Shown here: positions 41,151 to 62,322 of the stretch, one piece after another
Layout: the number at the start of each line of letters is the position of its first letter
Numbering within the stretch: the first letter of the stretch is position 1
Position numbers and translations under genes: made by a program
From: Bacteroidales bacterium
GTDB lineage: Bacteria > Bacteroidota > Bacteroidia > Bacteroidales > UBA932
Direction of reading: 5' to 3'
DNA: 64,000 nucleotides
Assembly: GCA_017616595.1 (NCBI GenBank)
Contig: JAFZXV010000087.1
Span: 1,385 to 65,384, forward strand
Notes under the pieces: model-generated
The model's database searches: none
Seen by the model: only the letters and a program-made list of their open reading frames with translations
Told to the model about the DNA's origin: nothing

Positions 41151-41671
41151 AACCAACTCTCTTCGTTTTAGTGTTGCTGCTTGTTCCGCAAGCAGTTTTT
41201 GGACGGTTGGAGTCTGGATACCTCTCTCCGGAAACTGTGGCCGCCCGTGGCCACATGAACGGGGGGGACCCACAAGCGTCAGCGCAGTGGGGGGGACGAA
41301 GCGAAGCGGAGGTTTCCGGAGAGAGGTATCCAGACGGAAACAAGTCCCAAAACGATCGTTCTTTTATTATCAATAAAGATTTCAACGATAAATTGATAGT
41401 GGAATCGGCGCCGGAGGGGGCGAATGTAGTGGAGAAGGCGGCGTGGAGGGTGAGCAGGCAGCTGACGGGAAGGGATTTCTACCGGCCGGTAAATTATATG
41501 TTCTTCCGGCAGGCTGTAAAGGAGATAGGGCTGATTCCGGCAATCTTTGCGACTGCAGACAGGGTGCTGAGAGACAGCAAGATAGGAACTTACGACGTGC
41601 GCATAGATGCTGAGCATCCGGTGGTGAACGAAGGGCCGGAGGCGTATGCTCCGGGGAGGGCCGGCAAATGA
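41147..41671 (+). CDS. Hypothetical protein with a degenerate YidD-like C-terminus and an in-frame family B insertion
   Basis: FFRQAVKEIGLIPAIFATADRVLR resembles the YidD helix but lacks the Cys residues; overlaps both neighbouring genes. Confidence 0.5.
   Translation: MKPTLFVLVLLLVPQAVFGRLESGYLSPETVAARGHMNGGDPQASAQWGGRSEAEVSGERYPDGNKSQNDRSFIINKDFNDKLIVESAPEGANVVEKAAWRVSRQLTGRDFYRPVNYMFFRQAVKEIGLIPAIFATADRVLRDSKIGTYDVRIDAEHPVVNEGPEAYAPGRAGK
41212..41335 (+). mobile_element. Family B palindromic element, in-frame
   Basis: Perfect 24-bp inverted repeat gtctggatacctctctccggaaac around the conserved core. Confidence 0.82.
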
Positions 41672-42513
41672 AGCGGGCGGCGGCCATAGCGGCGCTGCTT
41701 CTGGCGCTGGCCGGGCCGCGGGCCGCGGCGCAATCGACCTGGATTTCAGCCGATTGGGATTTTGCAGAGTACCTCATAGACACCGGCCTCAAGAAAGACG
41801 CCGCCACCCTGCTGGCGCAGGACCTGTATTTTCCGTCCGACACTCTCACCTACCTGCGCGGCTGGTCGGCCTACCAGCTGCAAGACCTGGAGCCGGCGCT
41901 GGAGCTGCTGCGCGCGGTGCCGGAAGACTCCCCCTTCGCCCAGAAATCGTTCTTCTACGGCAATGCAGTATCGGCCCACCTCGGAGACTATGCCACCCCT
42001 GCGGCACTGCTGGAGGCCTACGGCGGGCCGTACAAAGAGCTCCGCGGCGTGCAGCTGGCGGGTCTTGCCCTGTTGCGGGACGACCCTGCAGCCTTCAAGA
42101 GCGCCAGGGAATCCTTCGGCTATTCCGACTTTGCCCTGGTGGAGGCGGAGCGCAAGCTGGACGAGATTTACGACTTCCGATACGTGCGTCCCGCCAAGAG
42201 CCCGCTGCTGGCCGCGGCGGCATCGGCAGTTGTGCCGGGGCTCGGAAAGATCTACGCCGGACGCATCGGAGAGGGCATAGAGAGCTTCCTGATTACGGGC
42301 GTGAGCGGCGCGGTGGCGGCCAACTACTGGATCAAAGACGGCCCGCGCGATTGGAAAACCATCGCCGCCAGCGCTGTGTGCGCCATACTTTACATAGGAA
42401 ACATATACGGCAGCTACGTGTCCGTAAGCATATACAACAACAACGTCAAGGATGTTCAAGATACGGCTATTCTGTACAATATCCATATTCCTCTGCGCTC
42501 TGTGTTCAAATAG
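41668..42513 (+). CDS. TPR-like membrane protein
   Basis: Helical repeats; KSPLLAAAASAVVPGLGKIYAG membrane motif. Confidence 0.65.
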   Translation: MKRAAAIAALLLALAGPRAAAQSTWISADWDFAEYLIDTGLKKDAATLLAQDLYFPSDTLTYLRGWSAYQLQDLEPALELLRAVPEDSPFAQKSFFYGNAVSAHLGDYATPAALLEAYGGPYKELRGVQLAGLALLRDDPAAFKSARESFGYSDFALVEAERKLDEIYDFRYVRPAKSPLLAAAASAVVPGLGKIYAGRIGEGIESFLITGVSGAVAANYWIKDGPRDWKTIAASAVCAILYIGNIYGSYVSVSIYNNNVKDVQDTAILYNIHIPLRSVFK

Positions 42514-43255
42514 CGCGGCTCAGGATTGGGAGTCGATGGCCGTTGCGTACGAACGGCTGATTTACGACGGCGCGGGCCTGGAAGAGACCAACGCCGCCCT
42601 CCTCGCCAAGACCGAGTGCTACAAGATGCTGGGGCGCTACCAGGACGCATCCGGCACGCTGGCGCGCATCCGCATGTACGCCCTCACGCCCGAGGAGCGC
42701 AACACCGTGCTGTACCAGCAGGAGCTCTGCCACTTCCTGGCGGGCGAGCTGGATCAGGCGGCCACGCTTGTGGCGGAGGTGGAGCCATCGTCGCAAGACA
42801 TCCTGCTGCTGTACGCGCTCGTGCTGGCATACGCCGGGCGCTACGACGAGTCTGAGCTGATGGCGGCGCGATGCATAAGCTGGAACGGGGAGAGCCCGCA
42901 TCTGGATGAGCTGACGGCGCTGTACCGGCAGCACCCTGCAGAGCGCAACGCCACCGCCGCACTCGTGCTTGGCTTCCTGCCGCCGCTGGGGCATTTCTAC
43001 AACGGCGCGTACGGCGAGGGGCTCCTTTCTGCGGGCCTCAATGCAGCGTCCGTTGCCTTTGTGGTGGCCAACTGCATGGGCGGATACTGGGTCAGCGGCA
43101 TCCTTGGCGGCATCGTCGCCCTCAACTATACATGGATGGGGAGCGTGGAGCGCAGCCAGGCCCTGACGGAGAAGAACAACAACAACGCCACCATACTCTT
43201 TGGCGAGCGCGTGAGGGAATTCCTCGCCCGCGTGATGGAGGAGCCCGCAATATGA
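42452..43255 (+). CDS. TPR-like membrane protein, similar to the upstream gene
   Basis: TPR-like helices; LPPLGHFYNG motif; start position uncertain. Confidence 0.6.
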   Translation: MFKIRLFCTISIFLCALCSNSAAQDWESMAVAYERLIYDGAGLEETNAALLAKTECYKMLGRYQDASGTLARIRMYALTPEERNTVLYQQELCHFLAGELDQAATLVAEVEPSSQDILLLYALVLAYAGRYDESELMAARCISWNGESPHLDELTALYRQHPAERNATAALVLGFLPPLGHFYNGAYGEGLLSAGLNAASVAFVVANCMGGYWVSGILGGIVALNYTWMGSVERSQALTEKNNNNATILFGERVREFLARVMEEPAI

Positions 43256-43893
43256 AGAAGGAAGAACGATACAGGGCGATAGTCGACTGGTTCCGTACCA
43301 ACGTGCCCGTGGCGCAGAGCGAGCTGCACTTCCGCAACCCGTACGAGCTGATTGTATCCGTGGTGCTGTCTGCCCAGTGCACAGACAAGCGGGTGAACAT
43401 GGTTACGCCGGCGCTGTTTGAGGCGTATCCAACCCCGGCCGACCTTGCCGCGGCGCCGGTGGAAGACATCCTGGCGTACGTCAAGTCGGTATCGTACCCC
43501 AACAACAAGGCGCGCCACCTGAAGGGGCTCGGAGAAGCGCTTGTGCGCGATTTCGGCGGCGAGGTGCCATCTACCGTGGACGAACTGATGACGCTGCCCG
43601 GCGTCGGACGCAAGACCGCAAACGTGGTTGCATCAATCATTTACGACGAGCCCGTGATTGCCGTAGACACTCACGTCTACCGCGTGTCGCACCGGCTCGG
43701 GCTGTCCCGCGGCAAAACGCCGTACGACGTAGAAAGGGACCTCGAGAAGCATATACCCCAGGAGCACAGGGCCATCAGCCACCACTGGCTCATCCTCCAC
43801 GGACGTTACACCTGCACCGCCCGCTCGCCGCACTGTGAGGAGTGCGGCCTTCGTGAGCTGTGCGCATACCATTCCCGCAATGCCAAGAGTTAA
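43252..43893 (+). CDS. nth: Endonuclease III
   Basis: LSAQCTDKRVN, HhH LPGVGRKTANV, VDTHV and the C-x6-C-x2-C-x5-C cluster. Confidence 0.96.
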   Translation: MKKEERYRAIVDWFRTNVPVAQSELHFRNPYELIVSVVLSAQCTDKRVNMVTPALFEAYPTPADLAAAPVEDILAYVKSVSYPNNKARHLKGLGEALVRDFGGEVPSTVDELMTLPGVGRKTANVVASIIYDEPVIAVDTHVYRVSHRLGLSRGKTPYDVERDLEKHIPQEHRAISHHWLILHGRYTCTARSPHCEECGLRELCAYHSRNAKS

Positions 43894-44836
43894 GAACCTG
43901 CTGGCCGAGCTGCCGTCGGCCGAAGTAATCGACCTTGAGGCTATTCGCGCCGGCCTAGCCAGCGGCGAGATAGAGCTCGTGTGCGTGCTGGGGCCCACCG
44001 CCTCGGGCAAGACGCGCTACGCCGTGCAGCTTGCGCGCGCCCTCGGCGGCGAGATAATCTCCGCCGACTCCCGCCAGGTCTACCGCGGCATGGACATCGG
44101 CACCGGCAAAGACCTTGCAGACTACGGCGAGGTGCCGTACCACCTCATAGACATCGCCAACCCCGGCGACGGCTACAACGTCTTCCGCTTCAAAGAAGAC
44201 TTCGGAAAGGCCTACGCCGGCATCCGCTCCCGCGGCGCCACCCCCATCCTCTGCGGCGGCACCGGCCTCTACATCAACGCCGTTACCTCCGGCTACGACT
44301 TCAAGAGTCATAAGCCGCTGTCGGCGCCGAAGGATAATGGCGGGGAGGGACTCTTCTTCCAGCAAACAGAGACCGCCCATGGCCACCCTGAAGGGCAAGT
44401 TTCCCTTGGGGGACAACAGGGGGATAACTTGTCGCGCAGAGACGGGGGGGACCCGCTTGCGGGGGGGATGGAGCGAAGCGGAAGTTTTCTGGAAGAAGAG
44501 TCGCTCCCCGCTGTGCCAAGGACGTTCTTTATAGGAACGTTGGTAACTCGCGAGGTGCGCAACGCGCGTATTGACGCGCGGCTGGATGCGCGCCTTCAAG
44601 AGGGTATGATAGATGAAATCAAGGGCCTTCTGAACGGCGGCGTGGCGCCTTCCGTCCTTCTGGCATATGGCCTTGAGTATAAATACGTTACACTCTATCT
44701 TCTGGGCGAGCTGGACTACGCCTCCATGAGGGAGAAACTCGCCACAGCCATCCACCAGTTTGCCAAACGCCAGATGACATGGTTCCGCGGCATGGAACGC
44801 AGCGGCACCGTCATCCACTGGACAGAAGTATCCTGA
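43880..44836 (+). CDS. miaA: tRNA dimethylallyltransferase with an in-frame palindromic insertion
   Basis: GPTASGKT, IISADSRQVYRGMDIGTGK, GGTGLY and FAKRQMTWFR motifs. Confidence 0.9.
   Translation: MPRVKNLLAELPSAEVIDLEAIRAGLASGEIELVCVLGPTASGKTRYAVQLARALGGEIISADSRQVYRGMDIGTGKDLADYGEVPYHLIDIANPGDGYNVFRFKEDFGKAYAGIRSRGATPILCGGTGLYINAVTSGYDFKSHKPLSAPKDNGGEGLFFQQTETAHGHPEGQVSLGGQQGDNLSRRDGGDPLAGGMERSGSFLEEESLPAVPRTFFIGTLVTREVRNARIDARLDARLQEGMIDEIKGLLNGGVAPSVLLAYGLEYKYVTLYLLGELDYASMREKLATAIHQFAKRQMTWFRGMERSGTVIHWTEVS
44340..44511 (+). mobile_element. Family B element (long subtype), in-frame in miaA
   Basis: 28-bp inverted repeat with 2 mismatches: gcggggagggactcttcttccagcaaac / gttttctggaagaagagtcgctccccgc. 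Confidence 0.82.
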
Positions 44837-44889
44837 AAGCCTGGCGCAGGTGGCTGGCTAGCCACCGGGCGATTCTGGCGTAACGGAGA

Positions 44890-45051
44890 CGGGAAGGGAG
44901 TTGCAAAACTGTGGCCGCCCATAGCCACCCCGAAGGGCAGATGTCCTCTGGGGGACTACAGGGGGACAATTTGTCTCACAGAGATGGGAGGGGCCCGCTG
45001 CGTAGCGTGGGAGGGACGGAGCAAAGCGGAGGTTTTGCAACTCCCATCCCG
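44890..45051 (+). mobile_element. Family B element (long subtype), intergenic
   Basis: 20-bp inverted repeat cgggaagggagttgcaaaac with 1 mismatch; core shared with the copy at 44340. Confidence 0.82.
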
Positions 45052-45080
45052 CGCAGTGGAGACATAATTGCACGGTCTCG

Positions 45081-45267
45081 TGGCGCAAGTTCCAGGCCCT
45101 CTTAGCGCAGGTTCCAGGCCCTCGTGGCGCAGGTTCCCGGCCTTCTTGGCGCAGGTCCCTGGATCTCGTGGCGCAGGTCCGAAAAAAAGTGGGAGACCTG
45201 CGCCGCAAATCACCAATATACGCTCTGCAGTGGCGCAGGTGGTGGCAGAAAAATCGGACCTGCGCCA
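45081..45267 (+). repeat. Family E element (45169-45267) preceded by four 22-bp tandem arm copies
   Basis: tRgcgcaRgt at 45081, 45103, 45125, 45147 and 45169. Confidence 0.85.
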
Positions 45268-45276
45268 TCGAGCCCT

Positions 45277-45609
45277 TGCGAAGACGATGAGAAGGGCGCT
45301 CCGCTGTCTTCGCAGGTGGGGAAAAGCGAGAAAAGCCGGCAAAACCGCATGCGAAGACGATGAGAAGGACGTTCCGCTGTCTTCGCAGGTGGGGAAAAGC
45401 GAGAAAAGCCGGCAAAACTGTTTGCGAAGACGATGAGAAGGACGTTCCGCTGCCTTCGCCGGTGGGGAAAAGCGAGAAAAGCCGGCAAAACTGTTTGCGA
45501 AGACGATGAGAAGGACGTTCCGCTGCCTTCGCCGGTGGGGAAAAGCAAGAAAAGCCGGCAAAACTGTTTGCGAAGACAACGAAAAGGACGTTCCGCTGCC
45601 TTCGCAGGT
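45277..45609 (+). repeat. Family D: about 4.5 tandem copies of a 73-bp unit containing a hairpin
   Basis: Units start at 45277, 45350, 45423, 45496 and 45569; stem tgcgaagac...gYcttcgc. Confidence 0.92.
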
Positions 45610-45737
45610 AGGGATGGCAGACCAACAAGATATTACAAGATGATTCGGAGGCACGGAGTGCCGACCGGAGGGGGACATCGCTTGCGATGTGCGGGGGAGA
45701 GCCCTCCCCCGTCCCCTGGGGGTGCAGGGGGATAATA

Positions 45738-45763
45738 GTACTGGCGGCAATTGCCGCCAGTAC
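45738..45763. terminator. Perfect 26-bp palindrome downstream of the Lrp/AsnC gene
   Basis: gtactggcggcaattgccgccagtac. Confidence 0.55.
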
Positions 45764-45775
45764 GACGTTCCGGGA

Positions 45776-46267
45776 TTACAGGTTCCGGAACGTCGTGCTC
45801 TTGAAGTCTTTGACCCACACCTGGCGCTCGAAGGCCTGGTCCAGAGAGATCATGGTTTCTGTGGACTGGACGTAGGGGATGCGCTGGATGGTGTTGATGA
45901 TGGCCTCCATCAGGTGGTCGTTGTCTATGCAGTAGAGCTTGAGGAGAAGGGCTGCGCGGCCGGTGACGAAGTGGCACTCCACCACCTCGGGGATGTGCTT
46001 GAGCGCCTCTGTAACCTCTTGATACTTATTGGCTTCTGTGAGCGAGATGCTGATGAAGGCGCAGACGTTGAGCCCTAGGGCGCCGGGTTTGACCATCATC
46101 TGGGAGCCGGATATCACGCCGTTGTCTTCCAGCTTTTTGATGCGCTGGTGCACGGCCGCACCGGAGACTCCGCATTCGCGGGCAATCTCCAGGTAAGGCA
46201 TACGGGCGTTGTTTACAAGGTAGTAAAGAATCTTGCGGTCGGTCTCGTCGAGTTTATAGTTGGCCAT
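45776..46267 (-). CDS. Lrp/AsnC family transcriptional regulator
   Basis: LDETDRKIL...NARMPYLEIARECGVSGAAVHQRIKKL and PEVVECHFVTG; start at MANYK. Confidence 0.92.
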   Translation of the reverse strand: MANYKLDETDRKILYYLVNNARMPYLEIARECGVSGAAVHQRIKKLEDNGVISGSQMMVKPGALGLNVCAFISISLTEANKYQEVTEALKHIPEVVECHFVTGRAALLLKLYCIDNDHLMEAIINTIQRIPYVQSTETMISLDQAFERQVWVKDFKSTTFRNL

Positions 46268-46271
46268 GCTG

Positions 46272-48581
46272 CTACTTCTTTTTGTTGTACTTGCGGGCCG
46301 CCGTAGGAGCGCCGCCTGCAATTATCTCCTTGCACTTCTCTTCTGTAAGAAGTTCTGCGTCAATACCTTTGGGGATGCGGTAATTGCGTCCGTCGTGCTT
46401 GATGTAGGGGCCGTAGCGGCCGTTGATCACGCTGATGTCGCTCTGCGGCCACTCGTGGATCGGAGCGGCAACCGCCTCTTTCTTGGCGCTGTCCGACTCT
46501 ATTACCGCTATGCACTCCTCAACGCTGATGTTCAGCGGATCCTTGGTGCGCGGCAGGGAGACGTTGCGATCGCCCCATTTGATGTACGGGCCAAAACGTC
46601 CCTTGGTAGCGACTATGTCAACTCCCTGATACTCACCTACTACGCGCGGCAGGCGGAAGAGCTTGACGGCCTCCTCCAGCGTGAGGTTCTCTATGATCTG
46701 CCCCTTGCTGAGGCTGGCGGACTGATGCGCCGCACCCTCCCCTTTCTGCACGTACGGGCCGTACTGCCCAAGGCGGGCGGTAATCATAAGACCGTCGCTG
46801 GGGTCTATGCCTATCTCGCGGTCTATGTGGCCGAACTGACGGTTGGTCATCGCCTCGTCCACCTTGTGGTGGAACGGGGTGTAGAAGTCTGATATCACCT
46901 TGTTCCAAGACTTTTCTCCGCTGGCAATCTGGTCGAAATCCTTCTCTACGTTGGCAGTGAAGTCGTAGTCCATAATGTCAGAGAAACTACCTGTAAGATA
47001 ATCCGTTACGAGCATTCCCACATCGGTAGGGAGAAGCTTTCCCTTGTCTGCCCCGATGGTCTCTGTCTTGGCGGATTCCGCCACCTTGCCACCCTTGAGG
47101 ACGAGGTTGCGCACCTGCACCTTGCGCCCCTCCTTGTCGCCCTTGACCAGATAGCCGCGGGCCTTGGTGAGCGTGGTGATGGTGGGTGCGTAAGTGGACG
47201 GGCGGCCGATGCCGAGCTCCTCCATCTTCTTGATGAGGGTCTGCTCGGAGTAGCGCAGCGGAGCCTGGGTGTACTTGCACTCTGCGTTGACGGCAGAGGC
47301 GTCCAGCTTCTGGCCCACGGAGAGCACGGGCAGTTCCGTCGTCTCTTCGCGGAGTTCTTCCTCGTCGTCCATACCCTCGCGGTAGAGGCGCATGTAGCCG
47401 TCGAACAGCACCTGCATGGACTGCATTGCGTACGTCTCCGGCCTGCGGTCTATGGATACCTGCACGTTGGTGTTGAGCACCTTGGCCTCCGCCATCTGGG
47501 ACGCCACGGCCCTCTTCCAGATGAGCTGGTAGAGTTTTTTCTCCTGCTGAGTGCCCTCGATGTCTGTGTTGACCACGAAGGTGGGACGGATGGCCTCGTG
47601 TGCCTCCTGCGCCCCCTTGGAGTGGGTGTGATACTGGCGCGGGTGAGACATCTCGGCCCCGAAATTCTTGATTATGAAGTCTTTAGTGGTACCTACGGCC
47701 AGCGCCGACAGGTTGGTGGAGTCTGTACGCATATAGGTTATGAGACCCCTTTCGTAGAGCGATTGGGCCACGCGCATGGTGGTGCTCACGGGCAGGTGGA
47801 GCCTGCGGGCGGCCTCCTGCTGAAGGGTGGAGGTGGTAAACGGCGGCGGCGGCACTTTGACGCCCTCCTTGCTGTCTACCGCGCTCACGGTATAGGTGGC
47901 GCCGATGCAGTCTTCCAGGAACTTGCGGGCCTCTTCCAGCCCGGCAAAGCGCTTGTCCAGCAATCCGTGCACCTTGGTGCCGGCAACATCGAAAACAGCT
48001 TCCACGCGATAGAAGGGCACCGGCTGGAATGCGCCGATTTCCCTCTCCCTGTCCACCACGAGGCGGAGGACCACAGACTGCACGCGGCCGGCCGAAAGGC
48101 CTCTCTGGATCTTGCGCCACAGGATAGGCGACAGCTCGAAGCCCACGAGGCGGTCCAGCACGCGGCGTGCCTGCTGGGCGTTGACGAGGTCCATATCTAT
48201 GGAACGGGGATTCTTGATAGCCTCGAGTATGGCGTCTTTGGTAATCTCGTGGAACACGATGCGGCGGGTGCGGGACGGGGCGAGGCCGAGGGTCTCGCTG
48301 AGGTGCCAGGAGATGGCTTCTCCCTCGCGGTCTTCATCGGAAGCGAGCCAGACTATGGTGGAGGCGTCGGCAAGGCGGCGGAGGTCGCTGACCACCTTTT
48401 TCTTCTCTGCCGGGATTACGTATTCCGGGCGGAAGCCGTCTTTGATGTCTATGCTGAGGCTTTTGTCCTGCAGGTCACGGATGTGGCCGAAACTGGGCTT
48501 TACCACGAATCCTTCTCCAAGGAACTTCTGGATTGTCTTCGCTTTGGGCGGAGACTCGACTATCACTAAATTCTTTTCCAT
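46272..48581 (-). CDS. topA: DNA topoisomerase I
   Basis: LVIVESP, GHIRDL, DEDREGE, SAGRVQS and ITYMRTDS motifs. Confidence 0.97.
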   Translation of the reverse strand: MEKNLVIVESPPKAKTIQKFLGEGFVVKPSFGHIRDLQDKSLSIDIKDGFRPEYVIPAEKKKVVSDLRRLADASTIVWLASDEDREGEAISWHLSETLGLAPSRTRRIVFHEITKDAILEAIKNPRSIDMDLVNAQQARRVLDRLVGFELSPILWRKIQRGLSAGRVQSVVLRLVVDREREIGAFQPVPFYRVEAVFDVAGTKVHGLLDKRFAGLEEARKFLEDCIGATYTVSAVDSKEGVKVPPPPFTTSTLQQEAARRLHLPVSTTMRVAQSLYERGLITYMRTDSTNLSALAVGTTKDFIIKNFGAEMSHPRQYHTHSKGAQEAHEAIRPTFVVNTDIEGTQQEKKLYQLIWKRAVASQMAEAKVLNTNVQVSIDRRPETYAMQSMQVLFDGYMRLYREGMDDEEELREETTELPVLSVGQKLDASAVNAECKYTQAPLRYSEQTLIKKMEELGIGRPSTYAPTITTLTKARGYLVKGDKEGRKVQVRNLVLKGGKVAESAKTETIGADKGKLLPTDVGMLVTDYLTGSFSDIMDYDFTANVEKDFDQIASGEKSWNKVISDFYTPFHHKVDEAMTNRQFGHIDREIGIDPSDGLMITARLGQYGPYVQKGEGAAHQSASLSKGQIIENLTLEEAVKLFRLPRVVGEYQGVDIVATKGRFGPYIKWGDRNVSLPRTKDPLNISVEECIAVIESDSAKKEAVAAPIHEWPQSDISVINGRYGPYIKHDGRNYRIPKGIDAELLTEEKCKEIIAGGAPTAARKYNKKK

Positions 48582-53010: not shown

Positions 53011-54396
53011 ATGAAAAAGTATTTCTTTATTCTCATTGCCGGCATCTTTGCCGCCTGTACCCCGGAACAATATTATGTAGAACCCGCAGAGCCGGGGCCG
53101 GAGCCGTTCGAGCTCAGCGCCCGCGGCCTGGCAACAATGTTTGCCTCTCTGCCGATGGGGACGGAACAACTGCGCGAGGTATATCAGGCCGTCGGCCACT
53201 CCAGCAACAACGGTTACGACGAGGAGTATACGCTGGACAGCCTGCTGCTCAAACCCGGCGCCGGAGTGGGCCCCGGCACCAAGGCGCGGCCTTCCGGCAC
53301 GCCGCTGCGGGAAATGGTGCGAGGCTACCTTGAGGAGCACGCTTCCACCCGCTCTGGAATAGACGACCTGATGGAACTGATTGCCGAATCCGGCTACCAG
53401 CTCTACTGGCCGTACTCGGAAGACTGGGACGGAATTTCGTACCCCGTCATCACCTTCGACCCCGGCTACGGCGCCGAATCCAACTATGGGTTCGAACTCT
53501 CCCCCAGCCCCTCCGGCGCCATAATCACAGACACCCTTACCGTAGACGAAGCCCTCGCCCAGCGCCGCCCCGTGTGGGTTATCAACAGCAATTCCGACGC
53601 TGCGTTTACGCCGCTTGAGTTGTTTGCGCCGGGCGATTCTGGCTCCACTGCGCTGAAAGTGTTTTGCAAAACCTCCGCTTCGCTCCGTCCCTCCCACTGC
53701 GCTTCGCTTGTGGGCCCCTCCCGTTCATGTGGCCACGGGCGGCCACAGTTTTGCAAAATACTTCCAGCCTCCGTTCCGCCAGAATCGTCCGATTGTTCCT
53801 GCATTGAAGACAGATACCCGATCAGGTCGGGCATGACGCAAAGTGAGAGCGTGACGAACGAAACGGGCGTGACGCAAGGGAACGTCATTGCCGGCTGTGA
53901 CCGGCAATCTACTACCGCTTCCCGGCCACGGAGGTTGATGCTGAAGAGCTTCAGGATGCTGAGGAATTACGACAGTTGGTTCGGGGGTGCGTCGGAGTTC
54001 TGGATTAAGTGCGGCAGCGTCGAGGGGTTCAGCGCGGCGACGGAGGCGGAGCTGCAGCTGTACAGCCCCAGCATCACGGACTTCATGATTGTTGTAAAGC
54101 GGCGGGATATCAATAAGGAGGTACCTTACGAGGCGATTATGGTGTCCGACTTCTCCACCCAGCTGGACAAGATTGCGTTCCTGGTGGTGGAAGACGACGG
54201 AGGCACCCGCACCGGCTGGAAATGCGAGGCAACCGTAAAGATACAGTCCAAATCGTACGGCGTCTCGCTGGACATTCCCTACAACGAAAAGGACGACATA
54301 GTCTGGCGCGGCCAGCTCTCCGCACGTTTCTTCGAGGAGGAAGATATCGTCACCGGCCGCTTTGGCGACGTAATCTGCAGCTTTGAGCTGGAATGA
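53011..54396 (+). CDS. Hypothetical lipoprotein with a compound in-frame repeat insertion
   Basis: FAAC lipobox; the frame stays open across 53652-53910, which is repeat-derived. Confidence 0.75.
   Translation: MKKYFFILIAGIFAACTPEQYYVEPAEPGPEPFELSARGLATMFASLPMGTEQLREVYQAVGHSSNNGYDEEYTLDSLLLKPGAGVGPGTKARPSGTPLREMVRGYLEEHASTRSGIDDLMELIAESGYQLYWPYSEDWDGISYPVITFDPGYGAESNYGFELSPSPSGAIITDTLTVDEALAQRRPVWVINSNSDAAFTPLELFAPGDSGSTALKVFCKTSASLRPSHCASLVGPSRSCGHGRPQFCKILPASVPPESSDCSCIEDRYPIRSGMTQSESVTNETGVTQGNVIAGCDRQSTTASRPRRLMLKSFRMLRNYDSWFGGASEFWIKCGSVEGFSAATEAELQLYSPSITDFMIVVKRRDINKEVPYEAIMVSDFSTQLDKIAFLVVEDDGGTRTGWKCEATVKIQSKSYGVSLDIPYNEKDDIVWRGQLSARFFEEEDIVTGRFGDVICSFELE
53652..53768 (-). mobile_element. 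Family B element (short subtype, reversed), in-frame
   Basis: 21-bp inverted repeat gctgaaagtgttttgcaaaac with 2 mismatches; 117 bp long. Confidence 0.82.
53812..53910. repeat. Inverted pair of family A hairpins with 18-bp arm repeats between them
   Basis: agatacccgatcaggtcgggcatgac; tgac at 53834, 53852 and 53870; gtcattgccggctgtgaccggcaatct. Confidence 0.82.
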
Positions 54397-54437: not shown

Positions 54438-54470
54438 AAAAAAGGCCTGAATCGCCGCCGGGGCGCCCGA

Positions 54471-55151: not shown

Positions 55152-55235
55152 AAGCCAAAATATTATTCAAACAAATTTAGCAGATTTTCTGGAATTTTAC
55201 TTAATTTTGTACGGATATACAACACAGTACTATTT

Positions 55236-56258: not shown

Positions 56259-57077
56259 ATGGCCAAGGGCAGGAGTGTATACGCAGGAATAATCACCGCG
56301 GCAATCTTCATACTTCTGGAGTTTGCCGCGTTGTCTATGCTGCACGCGTCGTCCACCCTGCAGAACATCTGGATAAACCGGTTCTCGCATAACGTCATGG
56401 CCCGCAGCTGGGGCCTCGTGGAGCAGGTGCGCAGTTTCTTCAGCCTGCGCGAGCAGAACGAGATCCTGGCCGGACGCAACTACGAGCTGTTCAAGGAGGT
56501 ACAGCACTACAAAGAGCTGGAGCGCTCGCTCAAGGCCATGGCCAAACTCGATTCCGCAGGCCTGGCGCCCCGCTTCAACTACATCCCAGCCGAGATTACG
56601 GCAATGGGTACCAACTCCCGCCACAACTACATCATCATAGACAAAGGCTCGCTTGCCGGCGTACATCAGGGAGACTGCATAGTTACGCCCAACGGTGTAG
56701 TGGGCCTTGTGTATTCCGTAGACAAGCACTACTCCTACGGCCTTTCGCTCATGAACGAAAGGGTGAGCGTGAGCGCCCGCATCGGACGCGAGGGCATCGT
56801 GGCGCCGCTGCTATGGGACGGCAAGCGCTCAGACCACGTCATCCTGCGTGATATTCCGCTCCATCTGGACATTCCGGTAGGAGATACGGTCTGGACCAGC
56901 GGCATCTCCAAGATCTATCCGCCAGACATCCCGCTCGGCGTCACCGAAGGCACGCGCCTGGTGGACGGAGCGGTGGGCGTGGTGGACGTAAGGCTTTTTA
57001 CCGACCTGGCGTCGCTGCGCTACGTCATAGTGGCATCCAACCCCGACCGTGAAACAATAGAGGAGATGTCGCGATGA
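56259..57077 (+). CDS. mreC: Rod shape-determining protein MreC
   Basis: TM segment plus coiled coil; IDKGS..GV; TSG.S.IYP; operon position. Confidence 0.9.
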   Translation: MAKGRSVYAGIITAAIFILLEFAALSMLHASSTLQNIWINRFSHNVMARSWGLVEQVRSFFSLREQNEILAGRNYELFKEVQHYKELERSLKAMAKLDSAGLAPRFNYIPAEITAMGTNSRHNYIIIDKGSLAGVHQGDCIVTPNGVVGLVYSVDKHYSYGLSLMNERVSVSARIGREGIVAPLLWDGKRSDHVILRDIPLHLDIPVGDTVWTSGISKIYPPDIPLGVTEGTRLVDGAVGVVDVRLFTDLASLRYVIVASNPDRETIEEMSR

Positions 57078-57577
57078 AAGCATACCGTTTTGTAATTGTG
57101 TTCGTGGTGCTGGTTCTTGTGCAGATCGTGCTGTGCAACTTCCTCAACCTGTCCCGCTACGTGGTGCTGTCTTACCTGCCGGTGCTCATCATGATGCTGC
57201 CGGTGCGCTGGAACAACGTCCCCATGATGCTGTTTGCGTTTGCTCTGGGATTCCTGGTAGACTTTTTCTCCACCGGGATGCTGGGGCTCACCAGCCTCGC
57301 GCTCGTGCCGGTCGCGCTCGCCCGCGGGCTTGTCGTCGCCGGCATGTTCGGCGACGAACTCGGCGCCCGCGAGGGCGAGCTCAGCCTGTCCCGTTTCGGC
57401 TTGCTCAAGTTCATACTGGCCATCCTGATGCTCTGCGCGCTGTATTTCCTGGTGTACGTGTGGGCAGATTCCGCCGGCACCATGGGCTTCTGGCAGTGCG
57501 CCCTGCGCTTCTTCCTGTCTGTGCTGGTGAGCACGCCCGTCTGCATCTTCATATCCACAATCCTGCGTCCCGAGTAG
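57074..57577 (+). CDS. mreD: Rod shape-determining protein MreD
   Basis: Hydrophobic; GFLVDFF..GMLG; lies between mreC and mrdA. Confidence 0.82.
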   Translation: MKAYRFVIVFVVLVLVQIVLCNFLNLSRYVVLSYLPVLIMMLPVRWNNVPMMLFAFALGFLVDFFSTGMLGLTSLALVPVALARGLVVAGMFGDELGAREGELSLSRFGLLKFILAILMLCALYFLVYVWADSAGTMGFWQCALRFFLSVLVSTPVCIFISTILRPE

Positions 57578-57578
57578 T

Positions 57579-59411
57579 ATGGAAGCCAACAACCGTTCGA
57601 CCAAGCTGCTGATCGGGCTCGGGGTGGTGGTGCTTATCCTCCTCGGCAAGCTGTTCTGGGTGCAGATAGTAGACGAGCGTTACAAGATAGACGCCGCCAA
57701 CAACTCGATGTCGCGCGAGCTCATCTATCCGCCCCGAGGCGTAATCTACGACCGCAACGGAGTTCTCCTCGTGGGCAACCGCATCTGCTACGACATCCTG
57801 GTGACGCCCCGCGAGGTGCAGCAGTTCGACACCCTCGCGCTGGCGGAGTGCCTGGACACCACAGCCGATTTCATCCGCGAGCGCATGGAGTACTACCATA
57901 ACTTCCGCACCCGCATAGGCTGGCAGACGCTCACCTTCCTCAAGCAGGTGGACGCGTCAACATACATGAAGTTTGCCGAGCAGCAATACAGCTTCCCGGG
58001 CTTCAAGAGCCAGGCGCGCGGCATCCGGGAGTACCCCTTCAACGCCGGCGGCAACCTGCTGGGCTACATCTCCGAGGTGGATGCCGAGTTCCTCAAGACG
58101 CATCCAGATTATCGCGCCGGCGACTATTACGGCCGCACCGGGCTTGAGGCGGCACGCGAGGAAGACCTGCGCGGCAAGACCGGCTGGCACATCTACCAGC
58201 GCGACTCCCGCGGCCGCAAGAAAGACCCGTACAAAGACGGAGAGTACGATGTGGAGGCCATCCCCGGCAAAGACATCACCACCACCATAGACGCCTACCT
58301 GCAGAACTACGGCCAGCGGCTGATGAACGGCAAGAAAGGGAGCCTGGTGGCCATAGAGCCGTCTACGGGTGAGATCCTGGCGATGGTGTCCAGCCCCGGC
58401 ATAGACGTAGACGTGCTGTCCGACTTCGGGCGCCACTACAGCCAGCTGTCGCAGAACAAGCACAAGCCGCTCTACAACCGGACCGTGTCCGCGTCGTACC
58501 CTCCGGGATCGGTGTTCAAACTCGTAAACGGGCTTGTGGGCCTGCAGGACGGGGTTCTTCAGCCGTCGATGTATTACCCCTGCCACGGCGGATACGTCTA
58601 TACTTCCAGCGGCCGCACGCTGGGCTGCCACTACCACCGCTCGCCCCTGAATATGGAGGATGCGGTGATGATGTCGTGCAACAGCTACTTCTGCTACGTT
58701 ATGCGCAGCATCCTGGAGAACCCGGAATACGGTTCCACGGAAGAGGCGTACAACCACTGGCGGGAGATGGTGATGAGCTTCGGGTTCGGCAACAAGCTGG
58801 GCAGCGACTTCCCCTCCGAGCTGAGCGGCAACATACCGTCGGCGGAGTTCTACAACAAGCGCTACCGCAAGGGGCACTGGCGCTTCCCCACCATCGTGTC
58901 CCTTTCCATCGGCCAGGGAGAAATCCTCACCACGCCGCTGCAGATAGCCAATCTGGCGGCGATTATGGCAAACCGCGGCTACTACTGCATCCCCCATGTG
59001 GTCAAGGCGGCGGGCGATGTGGAGATAGACGCCAAATACAGAGAGCGCCACTACACGCTGGTAGACACCGTCCACTTCCCAAAGATGGTGCGCGGAATGT
59101 GGAAGGCCGTAAACCAGTTTGACGACGGGGCTACGGCCAACGTGGCGTATGTGCGCGGCCTGAACATCTGCGGCAAGACCGGCACGGCCCAGAACCCGCA
59201 CGGCAAAGACAATTCCGTGTTCATCTGCTTTGCGCCCATGGACAATCCGCAGATTGCAGTTGCGGCATACGTAGAGAATGCGGGATCCGGCGCCAGCTGG
59301 GCCAGCCCGATTGCGTCCCTGCTGGTAGAAAAGTACCTGCGCGGAGAGATTAGCGAAGACCGCAAAGACCTGGAACGCAGAGTGTTACGCACTAAACTTA
59401 TACGCCAATGA
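57579..59411 (+). CDS. mrdA: Penicillin-binding protein 2
   Basis: PPRGVIYDRNG, YPPGSVFK, SCN and KTGTAQ motifs. Confidence 0.93.
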   Translation: MEANNRSTKLLIGLGVVVLILLGKLFWVQIVDERYKIDAANNSMSRELIYPPRGVIYDRNGVLLVGNRICYDILVTPREVQQFDTLALAECLDTTADFIRERMEYYHNFRTRIGWQTLTFLKQVDASTYMKFAEQQYSFPGFKSQARGIREYPFNAGGNLLGYISEVDAEFLKTHPDYRAGDYYGRTGLEAAREEDLRGKTGWHIYQRDSRGRKKDPYKDGEYDVEAIPGKDITTTIDAYLQNYGQRLMNGKKGSLVAIEPSTGEILAMVSSPGIDVDVLSDFGRHYSQLSQNKHKPLYNRTVSASYPPGSVFKLVNGLVGLQDGVLQPSMYYPCHGGYVYTSSGRTLGCHYHRSPLNMEDAVMMSCNSYFCYVMRSILENPEYGSTEEAYNHWREMVMSFGFGNKLGSDFPSELSGNIPSAEFYNKRYRKGHWRFPTIVSLSIGQGEILTTPLQIANLAAIMANRGYYCIPHVVKAAGDVEIDAKYRERHYTLVDTVHFPKMVRGMWKAVNQFDDGATANVAYVRGLNICGKTGTAQNPHGKDNSVFICFAPMDNPQIAVAAYVENAGSGASWASPIASLLVEKYLRGEISEDRKDLERRVLRTKLIRQ

Positions 59412-60700
59412 GAGACGACGAACCGGTAAGGGGCCTGCGGCACACTGTAGACTGGAAGCTGATTATCCTGTACCTGCTGATAATGCTCTTCGGCTGGATG
59501 AACATCTATGCCGCGGTGCGCAGCGGCGAGCCGGCCAGCATCTTCGACCTTGGCTGCAACAGCGGCAAGCAGGCTATATGGATGGCCGGAGCGCTGGTGC
59601 TGGCGGTGGTCATCCTCTTTGTCATCCAACCGTATTTCTGGGAGAGCGTATGCCGCCCGGCGTACGGGCTGGTGCTGGTGCTGCTGGTGCTGGTTATCTT
59701 CCTGAGCAGCAATGTAAAGGGCTCGCATTCGTGGTTCGAGCTGGGGCCCGTCAAGTTCCAGCCGGCGGAGCTGAGCAAGATTACGACGTCCCTTCTACTG
59801 GCGTCGATCATGAGCCGCCCGGGCTTCAAGATGAGCTCGTGGAAGGACTTCCTGACGGCGGCCCTTGTGGTGGCAGTGCCCATGCTCGCCATCATAGCGG
59901 AAAGCGAGACCGGATCCGCCCTGGTGTACGCAGGATTCATCCTTGTGCTGTACCGCGAGGGCCTTTCCGGATGGATTCTGGGGCTTGTGGGAATGGTCAT
60001 ATTGCTGTTCGTGCTGACTCTTACCACGCACTGGGCGGTATCGCTCGCTCTGGTGGTGGCAGTGGCGGTGGTGTTTGCAGTCCGCATTCTGCCCAAGGCT
60101 CCGACGCTCCGGGTGAGGAGACGGTTTGTAAGAAGGATAATCCTTGCTGCGATGGTTGGCGTGATGATGGTGATGGCCACCGACTTCATCTTCCATAATA
60201 TGCTCAAGGATCACCAGCGAGGGCGCATCGAGGTTCTGCTCGGGCTCAAGGAAGACCCCCAGGGGCTCGGCTACAACGTGCACCAGTCGCTGATTGCGAT
60301 AGGTTCGGGCGGACTGTTCGGCAAGGGCTATCTGCAGGGGACGCAGACCACCTTCGGCTTTGTGCCTGAGCAGAGTACGGACTTCATCTTCTGCACCGTT
60401 GGAGAGGAGTGGGGATTCGTGGGATGCCTGCTGGTAATAGCCATGTACGCGCTGCTCATCTTCTGGATAGTGCGCGACTCCGAGCAGGCGCGGACGGCGT
60501 TCACGCGCATCTACGGCTATTGCGTGGCGGCGTGCCTGTTCATGCATCTGTTCATTAACATCGGTATGACCATCGGGCTGATGCCGGTTATCGGCATCCC
60601 GCTGCCGCTGTTCAGCTACGGCGGGTCGTCGCTGTGGTCGTTTACCGTGCTGATATTCATATTCATCGCCCTCGACAGGCAAGAAAAGAAGTATTTCTGA
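59408..60700 (+). CDS. rodA: Rod shape-determining protein RodA
   Basis: FQPAELSK, QSLIAIGSGG, PEQSTDFIF and PLPLFSYGGSS motifs. Confidence 0.94.
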   Translation: MRDDEPVRGLRHTVDWKLIILYLLIMLFGWMNIYAAVRSGEPASIFDLGCNSGKQAIWMAGALVLAVVILFVIQPYFWESVCRPAYGLVLVLLVLVIFLSSNVKGSHSWFELGPVKFQPAELSKITTSLLLASIMSRPGFKMSSWKDFLTAALVVAVPMLAIIAESETGSALVYAGFILVLYREGLSGWILGLVGMVILLFVLTLTTHWAVSLALVVAVAVVFAVRILPKAPTLRVRRRFVRRIILAAMVGVMMVMATDFIFHNMLKDHQRGRIEVLLGLKEDPQGLGYNVHQSLIAIGSGGLFGKGYLQGTQTTFGFVPEQSTDFIFCTVGEEWGFVGCLLVIAMYALLIFWIVRDSEQARTAFTRIYGYCVAACLFMHLFINIGMTIGLMPVIGIPLPLFSYGGSSLWSFTVLIFIFIALDRQEKKYF

Positions 60701-62079
60701 TGTTTACCCGTATTGTCCAGATAATCAACGATATAGTATGGAGCCCCGCGCTTGTGGTGCTGCTCATCGCGGCCGGGCTGTTCCTTACCGTGGGCACCCG
60801 CTTCGTGCAGGTGCGCCACTTGCCGGAAATGGTGCGCTCGCTGGTCTCGCGCAAAGCCGGCCGCGGCAGCGGAATCTCTTCTTTCGAGGCCTTCTGCATG
60901 GCACTGTCCGGCCGTATCGGTACGGGTAACATCGTAGGCGTAGCTACGGCCATCGCCTTTGGCGGACCGGGTGCGGTGTTCTGGATGTGGCTGATTGCTT
61001 TCTTTGGCGCCGCCACCGCCTTTTCCGAATCTACGCTGGCGCAGATGTTCAACTTTCCGCACAAGACCGTGTTCCGCGGCGGCCCGTTCAGCTACATAGA
61101 GAAGGGCCTCGGTGCCAAATGGCTGGGAGTGGTCTTTGCCATCGTGTGCATTGTGGGATACGGGCTCAGCGGGCCTACGGTGCAGGCCAACGGCATGAGC
61201 TCGGCGCTGGGCAATTCGTTCGGCATTCCTCCGCTGTGGAGCGGAGTGGCGCTGGTCGTAATCCTCGGGCTGGTGATCTTTGGCGGCGTCAAGAGCATCT
61301 CCCAGGTGGCAAAGGTGGTTACGCCGTTCATGGCTCTTGGCTACATCGGATTGTCCCTGGTGATTATCTTCACGCACCTCGACGCCGTGCCTGGCGTGTT
61401 CGGGATGATTTTCCGGAGCGCCTTCGGGCTCGATTCCGCATTCGGCGGCATACTCGGCTCCACCATCATGATGGGAGTCAAGCGCGGCATCTATTCCAAC
61501 GAGGCCGGGCAGGGCGGCGGGGCCATCGTGTCTGCATCGGCCGACGTGTCGCATCCGGTGCGGCAGGGCTTTGCGCAAAGCTTCTCCGTGTACGTTGATA
61601 CGCTTCTGGTCTGTACGGCAACCGCGCTGATGATACTGATCTGCGGCTCTTACAATGTGCTGGATTCCGGCACCGGAGAGATTCTGGTGGCGCAGGCACC
61701 CGAGCTGGGCAACAACTACGCCGGCTTTACGCAGGCGGCGGTGGATTCCCTCCTGCCGGGCCTTGGCGGCAAGTTCATCAGCGTGGCGCTTATCTTCTTT
61801 GTGTTCACCACCATCATGGCGTACTACTTCTATTGCGAGTCGGCGATAATCTATCTATGGCGCGGGCGCGAGGGAAAGGGAGAGAAAGTTGCCGTGTTCC
61901 TGATGCGCGTGGCCATCCTGGGAGCCGTGATCTTCGGCGCCCTCAAAGAGGCCGACGTCATCTGGCAGATCGGCGACATCGGCGTGGGCATCTGCGCCTG
62001 GATCAACGTCGTCGCCATCCTCCTCCTCAGCCCCAAAGTCTTCCGTGCCCTCCGGGACTACGAAAAGAAGCGGCCTTAG
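60700..62079 (+). CDS. Alanine/glycine:cation symporter (AGCS family)
   Basis: GTGNIVGVA..GGPGAVFWMW and RGIYSNEAGQG motifs; start at MFTRIV. Confidence 0.93.
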   Translation: MFTRIVQIINDIVWSPALVVLLIAAGLFLTVGTRFVQVRHLPEMVRSLVSRKAGRGSGISSFEAFCMALSGRIGTGNIVGVATAIAFGGPGAVFWMWLIAFFGAATAFSESTLAQMFNFPHKTVFRGGPFSYIEKGLGAKWLGVVFAIVCIVGYGLSGPTVQANGMSSALGNSFGIPPLWSGVALVVILGLVIFGGVKSISQVAKVVTPFMALGYIGLSLVIIFTHLDAVPGVFGMIFRSAFGLDSAFGGILGSTIMMGVKRGIYSNEAGQGGGAIVSASADVSHPVRQGFAQSFSVYVDTLLVCTATALMILICGSYNVLDSGTGEILVAQAPELGNNYAGFTQAAVDSLLPGLGGKFISVALIFFVFTTIMAYYFYCESAIIYLWRGREGKGEKVAVFLMRVAILGAVIFGALKEADVIWQIGDIGVGICAWINVVAILLLSPKVFRALRDYEKKRP

Positions 62080-62096
62080 CTCCGTTGCGCAAATAT

Positions 62097-62123
62097 GAGA
62101 TACCCGATCGAGTCGGGTATGAC
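62097..62123 (-). repeat. Family A hairpin, intergenic
   Basis: gagatacccgatcgagtcgggtatgac. Confidence 0.85.
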
Positions 62124-62167
62124 GGAACCTGATTCTGAAGCTATTGTTTGCCGGTAGCGGAGTGGAG

Positions 62168-62322
62168 GCGGGTGAAGTTTTGCAAAACTGTGGCCGCCCG
62201 TGGCCACATGAACGGGAGGGGCCCGCTGGATGGCGGGACGGATGGCAAGCTTGCTTGTCAGACGGCACGGCATTCAGTGGGAGGGACGGAGCGAAGCGGA
62301 GGTTTTGCAAAATTTTACCCGC
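62168..62322 (+). mobile_element. Family B element, intergenic
   Basis: 21-bp inverted repeat gcgggtgaagttttgcaaaac with 2 mismatches; outer gccggtagc/gctaccggc pair at 62150 and 62331. Confidence 0.82.

What the first reader, a model, noticed from the sequence alone, without database searches (positions are those of the whole stretch)
41212..62322. Family B: dispersed element with a conserved core and copy-specific, self-complementary terminal stems, in-frame in three genes
Seen: five copies at 41212-41335, 44340-44511, 44890-45051, 53652-53768 (reversed) and 62168-62322. They share the core AAACTGTGGCCGCCCRTRGCCAC...GGGRGGRGCCC-like...GGGRGGGAYGRAGCRAAGCGGARGTTT, which is more degenerate in the miaA copy. 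Each core is enclosed by a 20-28-bp inverted repeat that differs between copies (gtctggatacctctctccggaaac, gcggggagggactcttcttccagcaaac, cgggaagggagttgcaaaac and others) yet pairs almost perfectly within each copy. There are short and long internal subtypes. Three copies lie inside open reading frames without breaking them. Known: classical MITEs conserve their TIR sequence; GCGAAGC is an exceptionally stable ssDNA mini-hairpin; in-frame palindromic insertions are described as RPEs in Rickettsia. Inference: an uncharacterised non-autonomous element or structured RNA/ssDNA, conserved at the level of structure, which adds peptide segments to Bacteroidales proteins. No mobiliser is encoded in the window.
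Basis: partly seen in the sequence, partly recalled or inferred. Interest (0 to 1): 0.88.

Follow-up and report, generated by a model that had tools for sequence, protein, structure and literature searches.

The report
Structured foldback repeat translated inside genes
A hairpin-shaped DNA repeat of 120-250 bases, with a conserved folded tip on arms that only need to pair, is scattered through one large genus of uncultured gut Bacteroidales and often sits in frame inside essential genes; it resembles the palindromic elements of Rickettsia, but it is conserved as a fold rather than as a sequence and appears undescribed.

Summary
The 2.04-Mb genome (77.6% complete) carries at least 40 more. A covariance model finds the family in 120 of 151 sampled genomes of the genus, but in only 1 of about 148 other genera of the order. 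Rfam has no match.

The unit is a rod. A 20-30-bp stem is unique to most copies, and 20 of its 21 modelled pairs covary. It closes a conserved cap with four parts:
- a 7-bp hairpin;
- a pairing between that hairpin's loop and downstream bases, in three covarying variants;
- a G-tract hairpin;
- a GCGNAGC mini-hairpin.

Fourteen of 29 copies add a second conserved internal loop and an outer stem. Optional modules sit in loops.

At least 10 copies lie in frame inside real genes (UvrA, DnaX, AtpG, TilS, MiaA, MazG and others), in either orientation. Relatives have empty sites, a stem without a cap, flipped caps, or other stems at the same spot.

Best reading: a non-autonomous foldback element that acts as a folded single strand, probably DNA. 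The mobiliser is unproven. RAYT-like HUH genes co-occur with the family but do not flank it.

This scan has noted the same kind of element before in other Bacteroidales genomes.

The parts
41212..41335 (+). Copy c1, short subtype. Arms are 41212-41235 and 41312-41335 (24 bp, perfect) and the cap is 41236-41311. It is in frame in the secreted protein P0003 (41147-41671), just after the signal peptide.
   Evidence: The closest relative contig, L023, lacks exactly 120 nt here, and the proteins then align without a gap.
44340..44511 (+). Copy c2, long subtype with module 1. It is in frame in the MiaA linker. Arms are 44340-44367 and 44484-44511 (28 bp, 2 mismatches).
   Evidence: Orthologous copies occur in L023 (short cap, same orientation) and in L024 (short cap, reversed). 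Stem changes between them are compensated on the other arm.
44866..45063 (+). Copy c3, long subtype with module 1, lying between genes 30 nt after the miaA stop. Inner arms are 44890-44909 and 45032-45051. A second-layer motif and a partial outer stem lie outside them.
   Evidence: It is absent from L023 and L024.
53636..53788 (-). Copy c4, short subtype. It lies reversed and in frame in lipoprotein P0002 (53011-54396). Inner arms are 53652-53672 and 53748-53768. Second-layer motifs are present, with an outer stem cgattctggc/gccagaatcg.
   Evidence: Orthologues in G033, G054, G063 and G096 lack the roughly 87-residue insert, which is this copy plus a family A doublet.
62151..62339 (+). Copy c5, long subtype with module 2, lying between genes after the sodium:alanine symporter gene. 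Inner arms are 62170-62188 and 62302-62322. The outer stem is gccggtagc/gctaccggc.

Best explanation
Family B is a non-autonomous foldback repeat that is recognised, and probably copied, as a folded single strand, most likely DNA.

Shown:
- The unit is a rod. A stem of arbitrary sequence closes a conserved cap.
- The cap contains a 7-bp hairpin, a pairing between that hairpin's loop and the bases just after it, a G-tract hairpin and a GCGNAGC mini-hairpin.
- Fourteen of 29 copies carry a second conserved internal loop and an outer stem.
- The G-rich strand is the one that folds.
- Whole hairpins are gained or lost between species.
- Caps are lost, swapped or flipped inside stems that persist.
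- Extra hairpin modules sit inside loops of the cap.
- Copies survive in frame in loops of essential proteins.

Inferred:
- The whole hairpin is the unit that is duplicated, because young subfamilies share their stems.
- After insertion only the pairing of the stem is kept, through compensatory change and perhaps through correction of one arm against the other by template switching during replication.
- The cap stays uniform through selection for recognition or through gene conversion between copies.
- Flips come from recombination or template switching between the two arms.
- The mobiliser may be one of the RAYT-like HUH (Y1) proteins of these genomes. This last step is the weakest.
For: Copy number and range:
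- 29 full copies plus variants in the genome.
- 120 of 151 genus genomes match, against 1 of about 148 other genera.

Structure:
- 20 of 21 stem pairs covary within the genome.
- Genus-wide, 96% of cells are paired and 26 of 35 pairs change on both sides.
- The loop-to-downstream pairing occurs as CCCGT/ACGGG, CCCAT/ATGGG and CCCTC/GAGGG.
- The second-layer dinucleotides are complementary in 14 of 14 copies, in four combinations.

Strand and molecule:
- G.T oppositions outnumber A.C by 54 to 8.
- The mini-hairpin loop varies as GNA.
- In-gene copies are 5 sense and 5 antisense.
- No reverse transcriptase was found in G000, G042, G054 or G142.

Gain and loss:
- c1 is a clean 120-nt difference from L023.
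- c3 is absent from L023 and L024.
- The c4 insert is absent from four relatives.

Stems and caps are separable:
- The UvrA site of G009 keeps a 30-nt palindrome without a cap.
- The MiaA site keeps one stem with three different caps, one of them reversed.

Stems are inherited in young subfamilies.

HUH link:
- There are four RAYT-like genes in the genome, two of them flanked by their own hairpins.
- PF01797 is present in 90 of 120 genomes with the family and in 8 of 31 without it.
Against: - No insertion polymorphism was seen among strains that are 99.9% identical.
- No copy of the family flanks a Y1 gene in 12 other loci.
- Thirty genomes with the family have no PF01797 match.
- The association with Y1 genes is not corrected for relatedness. 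It could also reflect the other hairpin families of these genomes.
- No donor with c1's stem was found in 300 genomes. Most stems are unique in the genome. This is hard to square with plain copying of whole hairpins.
- At the orthologous MiaA site the cap and its hairpin keep pairing through compensatory changes. That points to selection in place or to conversion between copies, not to a dead insertion.
- A conserved pseudoknot-like pairing and frequent G.U-type pairs would fit RNA equally well.
Confidence: 0.45

Rival explanations
1. Only the cap is mobile or exchangeable. It homes to the tip of DNA hairpins or palindromes that already exist at a locus, including those left by earlier elements. 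The locus-specific stems would then be older than the cap they carry.
For: - The UvrA site of G009 has the stem and second-layer motifs but no cap.
- The MiaA site keeps one stem with a long cap, a short cap and a reversed cap in three species.
- Modules 1 and 2 sit exactly in loops of the cap, as a hairpin within a hairpin.
- Near-identical copies C100 and C47 are flanked by different 8-bp and 4-6-bp inverted repeats.
- Different elements occupy the same spot in UvrA, AtpG, MiaA and P0003 in different species.
Against: - At c1 both arms are missing from the empty site in L023, and no palindrome is present there.
- The G121 burst and the B5 subfamily carry their stems with them.
- Few cap-less palindromes with the matching centre exist in the genome.
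- The cap-less site in G009 can also be explained by slippage between the CCGG words that occur in both arms.
Confidence: 0.25
2. The elements are kept by the host as DNA structure signals, as proposed for REP sequences. They could be binding sites for nucleoid proteins or topoisomerases, or pause or termination sites. They would persist because each copy is useful.
For: - Orthologous copies keep the cap and stem pairing across species whose MiaA is 76-83% identical.
- Several copies lie just after stop codons (c3, c5).
- The family is present in most of a large genus.
Against: - Many copies sit inside coding loops of essential genes in either orientation. A termination or pause signal there would do harm.
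- Presence at a given site varies between close species.
- Thirty-one genomes of the genus gave no match, 15 of them at least 90% complete.
Confidence: 0.15
3. The family is a structured RNA. The fold works in transcripts, for example as a processing or stability element, or as the intermediate of an RNA-based copying step.
For: - There is a covarying pseudoknot-like pairing.
- One pair is G.U in 15 of 32 sequences and alternates with A-U and G-C.
- G.U-type pairs are strongly in excess on one strand.
- The second-layer loop has purine-purine oppositions around two covarying pairs.
Against: - In-gene copies are antisense to the host gene as often as sense.
- The element contains no conserved promoter-like part.
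- Rfam has no match.
- Reverse transcriptase is missing from four genomes rich in copies.
- The GCGNAGC loop pattern is the one known for unusually stable DNA mini-hairpins (my own knowledge; not tested here).
- A 20-30-bp perfect RNA stem inside an mRNA would be expected to attract RNase III (inference).
Confidence: 0.12

Closest known systems
Rickettsia palindromic elements (RPE; reviewed in PMC10969869)
   Same: Palindromic repeats of 100-150 bp, specific to one lineage. They lie between genes and in frame inside working protein genes, where they add peptide segments in surface loops. No transposase is attached.
   Different: RPE families are defined by conserved sequence along the whole palindrome. 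Here the arms are free to vary and only the cap and the pairing are conserved. The host phylum is unrelated. Flipped caps and cap-less stems at orthologous sites are seen here. No sequence comparison with RPEs could be run.
REP / REPIN elements with RAYT (TnpA-REP) transposases (PMC3733652, PMC6006769, PMC3116915)
   Same: Short hairpin repeats that persist in a lineage and are thought to be handled as folded single-stranded DNA by HUH Y1 enzymes. The host genomes here encode RAYT-like proteins, two of them flanked by their own hairpins. Family A of the same window is a CGTC-tagged hairpin of the REP kind.
   Different: Family B has no GTAG or CGTC tag at a hairpin foot. Its arms are not the conserved part. 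It is 3-6 times longer than a REP, with a multi-hairpin cap. No RAYT-like gene flanked by family B copies was found.
Classical bacterial MITEs such as Correia elements (PMC10969869, PMC3184786)
   Same: Small, non-coding, multi-copy, foldback-forming elements that depend on functions supplied elsewhere. They can be co-transcribed or translated with host genes.
   Different: MITEs have conserved terminal inverted repeats that match a parent IS, and target-site duplications. Here most terminal repeats differ from copy to copy, and the clean c1 junction shows no duplication.
[quoted passage not shown]
   Same: Long, near-perfect, locus-specific inverted repeats are tolerated inside translated genes. 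Template switching is a known way to make or perfect such arms in one step.
   Different: Those palindromes have no shared conserved cap and are not a dispersed family. They occur in organelle or animal genomes.

Membership tests
Rickettsia palindromic elements (RPE) | Palindromic repeat of about 100-150 bp found both between genes and in frame inside protein genes | tested here: met
   At least 10 of 29 copies lie in frame in real genes. The rest lie between genes.
Rickettsia palindromic elements (RPE) | Family consensus conserved along the palindrome arms; homology to RPE-1 to RPE-8 | tested here: not met
   The arms differ between copies. Homology to RPE sequences could not be tested because none were at hand. 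The host is a Bacteroidales, not a Rickettsia.
MITE | Conserved terminal inverted repeats derived from a parent insertion sequence | tested here: not met
   Most terminal stems are unique. No longer element with the same ends was found in the genome.
MITE | Target-site duplication | tested here: not met
   c1 compared with the empty site in L023 is a clean 120-nt difference with no direct repeat. No direct repeats were seen beside other copies.
REP / REPIN with RAYT | GTAG or CGTC tetranucleotide at the foot of a 20-40-nt hairpin | tested here: not met
   The base of the cap is AAAC-N before the first hairpin. Neither tag is conserved.
REP / REPIN with RAYT | A cognate RAYT gene flanked by copies of the repeat (REPtron) | tested here: inconclusive
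   Four RAYT-like genes exist. Only one has a family B copy nearby, about 400 nt upstream and inside mazG. The hairpins that flank these genes belong to other families. None of 12 loci in other genomes has a family B copy. Co-occurrence across the genus is positive.
Any Rfam RNA family | Score at or above the family's gathering threshold | tested here: not met
   There were no hits on the window at gathering scores. The permissive scan of 41000-45300 gave nothing on the copies.
Integron attC sites | Conserved R/L boxes at the outer ends, with a variable centre | tested here: not met
   The layout is the reverse: the centre is conserved and the outer arms vary. No integrase search was done.

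The most novel reading that the evidence does not exclude
The family is a replicator defined by structure: any stem will do, provided it carries the pseudoknotted, G-rich cap. Caps would be installed, exchanged and flipped at the tips of DNA hairpins by a single-strand enzyme, perhaps the RAYT-like HUH proteins. This would build hairpin-in-hairpin rods, and each copy would be kept in place by selection. That would be a mode of mobility and maintenance not described for bacterial repeats.
Probability: 0.2. Interest if true: 0.9.

Novelty: new variant of a known kind. Interest (0 to 1): 0.72.

Why it matters
- It shows that essential proteins of a major group of gut and rumen bacteria (UvrA, DnaX, ATP synthase gamma, TilS, MiaA) routinely carry translated pieces of a selfish or structural repeat. 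This affects gene calling, protein family alignments and metagenome assembly, where contigs break or join wrongly at these repeats.
- It offers a natural case in which a DNA or RNA fold, rather than a sequence, is what is inherited: 30 or more independent stems per genome and hundreds per genus. That makes it a good test bed for how folded single strands are recognised, copied and kept paired.
- If the link to the RAYT-like HUH proteins holds, it would extend the REP/RAYT idea to a much more elaborate substrate in another phylum.

Tried and rejected
- Public runs: only four DNA runs of one study hold the stretch, kept as short contigs. No RNA holder is listed.
- Laying those contigs on 42450-62400 gave no joint that skips or flips a copy. 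The contigs simply break at the repeats.
- Strains of the same species, on five contigs 99.8-99.9% identical to the window, carry c1-c4 unchanged. One contig, L027, joins the left half of the TilS copy to the right half of c1 through the cap. This is either a mis-assembly or a recombinant, so it was not used.
- Stem G+C against flank G+C: weak (Pearson 0.47, Spearman 0.33, p = 0.05). It does not settle where the stems come from.
- Search for a donor of c1's stem in 300 genomes of the genus: none found.
- Search for other uses of 22 outer stems in the genome: only chance-level hits, apart from known subfamilies.
- Orientation against local GC skew: 23 of 39, not significant. The contigs are short.
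- The idea that one arm is old host sequence mirrored at insertion was rejected for c1. Removing all 120 nt, and not fewer, restores a gapless alignment with L023.
- A 7-nt word (cggaaac) shared by c1's left arm and right flank was considered as a target duplication. It was rejected because it breaks the reading frame and is not seen at other copies.
- Reading the second-layer motifs as a target duplication was rejected. The left and right versions differ in a fixed way, and their central dinucleotides are reverse complements rather than identical.
- Reverse transcriptase as a general mobiliser: not found in four genomes rich in copies.
- Literature: five searches found no description of such an element in Bacteroidales.
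Full report
**1. The observation**

Shuffled sequence gives 0.4 and 0.0 expected matches (sequences). Each core is closed by a near-perfect inverted repeat:
- 24 bp, perfect, in c1;
- 28 bp with two mismatches in c2;
- about 20-21 bp in c3, c4 and c5.

Rfam gives nothing, either at gathering scores over the whole window or in a permissive scan over 41000-45300.

**2. Copy number and range**

The window belongs to a 2.04-Mb draft genome of 196 contigs, 57% G+C and 77.6% complete.
- A motif scan finds 29 copies with both ends. It also finds 35 further left-end motifs and 10 variant right ends.
- A scan for inverted repeats shows these belong to a superfamily of related caps.
- A covariance model built from 19 short copies finds the family in 120 of 151 sampled genomes of the genus. 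Counts per genome were capped at 24.
- In a sample of the order it finds only one of about 148 other genera.

**3. Anatomy**

The predicted fold is a long closing stem on a three-part cap.

Support from the 19 copies within the genome:
- 20 of the 21 stem pairs change on both sides while staying paired.
- The first hairpin (N-GTGGCC ... GGCCAC-N') has two covarying pairs.

Support from 33 copies drawn from about 30 genomes:
- 96% of cells are paired, against 69% after shuffling and 37-46% when partners are slid.
- 26 of 35 pairs change on both sides.
- That alignment was fitted to the model, so it leans towards the structure. The margin is nevertheless large.

(a) The loop of the first hairpin pairs with the bases just after it. 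This pairing occurs as CCCGT/ACGGG, CCCAT/ATGGG and CCCTC/GAGGG. It is either a pseudoknot-like pairing or an alternative helix.

(b) The centre is GGGRGGG, then a short hairpin, then GGGRGGG. One pair of that hairpin is G.U-type in about half the copies.

(c) The invariant GCGAAGC occurs elsewhere as GCGTAGC and GCGCAGC, with longer stems in some subfamilies.

(d) Fourteen of the 29 copies have a second layer outside the inner stem. The left side reads G-[GAT]-A-NN-GGAG, the right side reads G-[CGA]-A-NN-GGAG, and an outer stem of 5-11 bp follows. The NN dinucleotides are reverse complements in 14 of 14 copies, in four combinations. So this is a structured internal loop, not a target duplication.

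(e) The long subtypes are optional hairpin modules placed in loops. Module 1 (55 nt) replaces the four bases after the first hairpin. Module 2 (about 50 nt) sits in the loop of the central hairpin. One copy has both.

**4. Which strand, and which molecule**

- In the stems, G.T oppositions outnumber A.C by 36 to 9 within the genome and by 54 to 8 across the genus. The G-rich strand is therefore the one that folds.
- In-gene copies are sense in five cases and antisense in five. This argues against a role that depends on host transcripts.
- No reverse transcriptase domain was found in this genome, nor in three genomes that are rich in copies and 96-98% complete.
- From my own knowledge, the GCGNAGC pattern is the one known for very stable DNA mini-hairpins.

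I therefore lean towards single-stranded DNA. RNA is not excluded, and no RNA data exist for this organism.

**5. Copies inside genes**

The three claimed cases are real.
- c1 lies just after the signal peptide of a conserved secreted protein. It is missing from G009, G033, G096, G054 and G094.
- c2 lies in the MiaA linker.
- c4, together with a family A doublet, adds about 87 residues to a lipoprotein. Four relatives lack the insert.

Elsewhere in the genome, copies lie in frame in UvrA, a HU-like protein, TilS, MazG, a SpoU methylase, ATP synthase gamma and DnaX.

Copies have on average 3.1 of 6 frames open, against 1.7 in shuffles and 2.6 in random genomic pieces. Twenty-eight per cent have five or more open frames. 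Part of this excess must come from survivorship.

**6. What happens at orthologous sites**

(a) c1. The closest relative contig (L023, MiaA 83% identical) is empty. Removing exactly 120 nt, that is 22 bp of each arm plus the 76-nt cap, gives a gapless protein alignment. There is no duplication and no palindrome at the empty site. A more distant relative, L024, has a shorter, degenerate element with different stems within a few bases of the same spot.

(b) MiaA. The same stem is kept in three species. Single changes in one arm are matched in the other arm. The cap, however, is long in the window, short in L023, and short and reversed in L024. Across the clade this linker also holds other repeat families, or is empty at 6-10 residues.

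(c) UvrA.
- G054 is empty.
- G009 keeps a 30-nt palindrome that equals the window's stem without a cap, with the second-layer motifs on the opposite strand.
- G033 has another stem with a truncated, reversed cap.
- G063 has a different cap variant.
- The cap-less state could arise by slippage between the CCGG words present in both arms.

(d) ATP synthase gamma. Each of five genomes carries a different small repeat in the same loop.

Whole hairpins, and caps alone, are therefore both gained or lost. Caps flip, and some protein loops are hit again and again.

**7. Are the stems inherited?**

In young subfamilies they are.
- Three or four copies in this genome share everything from the second layer inwards.
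- Four share the stem cggatatctgtttttc.
- G121 has about ten near-identical composite copies.

Most stems, however, are unique in the genome and in 300 genomes of the genus, while the caps stay about 90-95% alike. There are three possible explanations:
- old copies are kept under selection for the fold;
- caps are homogenised or replaced while stems drift under a pairing constraint;
- stems are renewed when a copy is made.

The data do not decide between these. The near-identical copies C100 and C47 are flanked by different short inverted repeats, which favours insertion at small palindromes or growth of the stem after insertion.

**8. A possible mobiliser**

The genome has four genes of about 290-330 codons with an HUH motif and a Y-x-x-N-P-like motif.
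- They match Y1_Tnp at about the Pfam cut-off.
- They match the REP-associated tyrosine transposase model, but below its cut-off.
- None is in the window.
- Two are flanked by their own small hairpins, in the way REP sequences flank RAYT genes.

Across the genus, PF01797 matches occur in 90 of 120 genomes with the family and in 8 of 31 without it. The odds ratio is 8.6. Among genomes at least 90% complete the figures are 43 of 60 against 4 of 15. Five near-complete genomes without the family have no match.

Three cautions apply:
- The test is not corrected for relatedness.
- The same genomes carry other hairpin families that these enzymes may serve.
- No family B copy flanks a Y1 gene in 12 other loci.

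The link is a lead, not a finding.

**9. Comparison with what is known**

In behaviour the family is closest to the Rickettsia palindromic elements: repeats specific to one lineage and translated inside genes. In likely biochemistry it is closest to REP/REPIN elements with their RAYT enzymes.

It fails the defining tests of all three classes:
- RPEs: the arms are not conserved.
- MITEs: there are no conserved terminal repeats and no target duplication.
- REPs: there is no GTAG or CGTC tag and no REPtron.

Five literature searches found no description of it.

Earlier notes of this scan describe the same kind of element in other rumen and gut Bacteroidales genomes, including flipping in place and in-frame copies in tilS. 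Those notes are unchecked. My own results agree with them. They also add the loop-to-downstream pairing, the structured second layer, the strand asymmetry, the clean 120-nt junction, the cap-less palindrome and the co-occurrence with Y1 genes.

**10. Verdict**

The feature is real and its description is sound. It is a new variant of the small palindromic repeat kind, defined by fold rather than by sequence. The mechanism is open. It is of clear interest to people who work on mobile DNA, on nucleic acid structure and on annotation of Bacteroidales genomes.

Noticed in passing
window 62100-62130 and 53805-53850: Family A is a hairpin of the CGTC-tagged REP kind: ccgtcat-acccga..tcgggt-atgacgg. 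One doublet is translated inside lipoprotein P0002, next to c4. The same word appears as VMPD.IGH in MiaA linkers of relatives.
   Followed up: partly
G000 contigs C143:7098-8027 (+), C82:1918-2835 (-), C32:29493-30341 (+), C92:17456-18334 (-): Four RAYT-like HUH (Y1) genes. The C143 gene is flanked by inverted 9-bp-stem hairpins with 16-nt loops (6975-7008 and 8077-8110). The C92 gene is flanked by gccggtggc-GCTGAAACGKT-gccaccggc hairpins. Both arrangements resemble REPtrons.
   Followed up: partly
G000 C9:2614-2683, C168:5579-5649, C17:2565-2622, C19:8468-8523, C178:2968-3019: A second family with the same design on a smaller scale. Copy-specific perfect stems of 13-27 bp close a conserved 14-17-nt loop (TTAAACC.. 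or TTAAGCC..). One such hairpin sits in the ATP synthase gamma gene of G096.
   Followed up: no
window 43835-44836 and relatives (alignment A2, proteins P0004-P0060): In six of the 12 MiaA genes aligned from this genus and order the tRNA-binding insertion domain is absent. A short linker between KPLSAP and PRTFFIGT takes its place. This linker is repeatedly filled by different repeat families.
   Followed up: partly
L108 (G063 uvrA), L116 and L117 (G063 and G009 atpG): Another translated mini-repeat (tgtcattc-gagcgaagcga-gaatc and its variants) reads as ..HSERSEES.. or ..SFRPERSGVEES.. inside housekeeping proteins.
   Followed up: no
L027:6600-6800: A metagenome contig joins the left flank and arm of the TilS copy to the right arm and flank of c1, through the shared cap. 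It is either a mis-assembly at the repeat or a recombinant between copies.
   Followed up: no
window 45350-45541: Among strains 99.9% identical, the only length difference in 20 kb is the number of tandem units in the repeat cluster after miaA (the ggcgcaggtcc / ggggaaggtc families).
   Followed up: no
G121 (loci L081-L090): A burst of about ten near-identical composite copies. Each has a second stem gtgccgttcttg/caagaacggcac and ends in ..gcctgcgagcagcattccgg. Several lie at contig ends. This genome also has two reverse transcriptase genes.
   Followed up: partly
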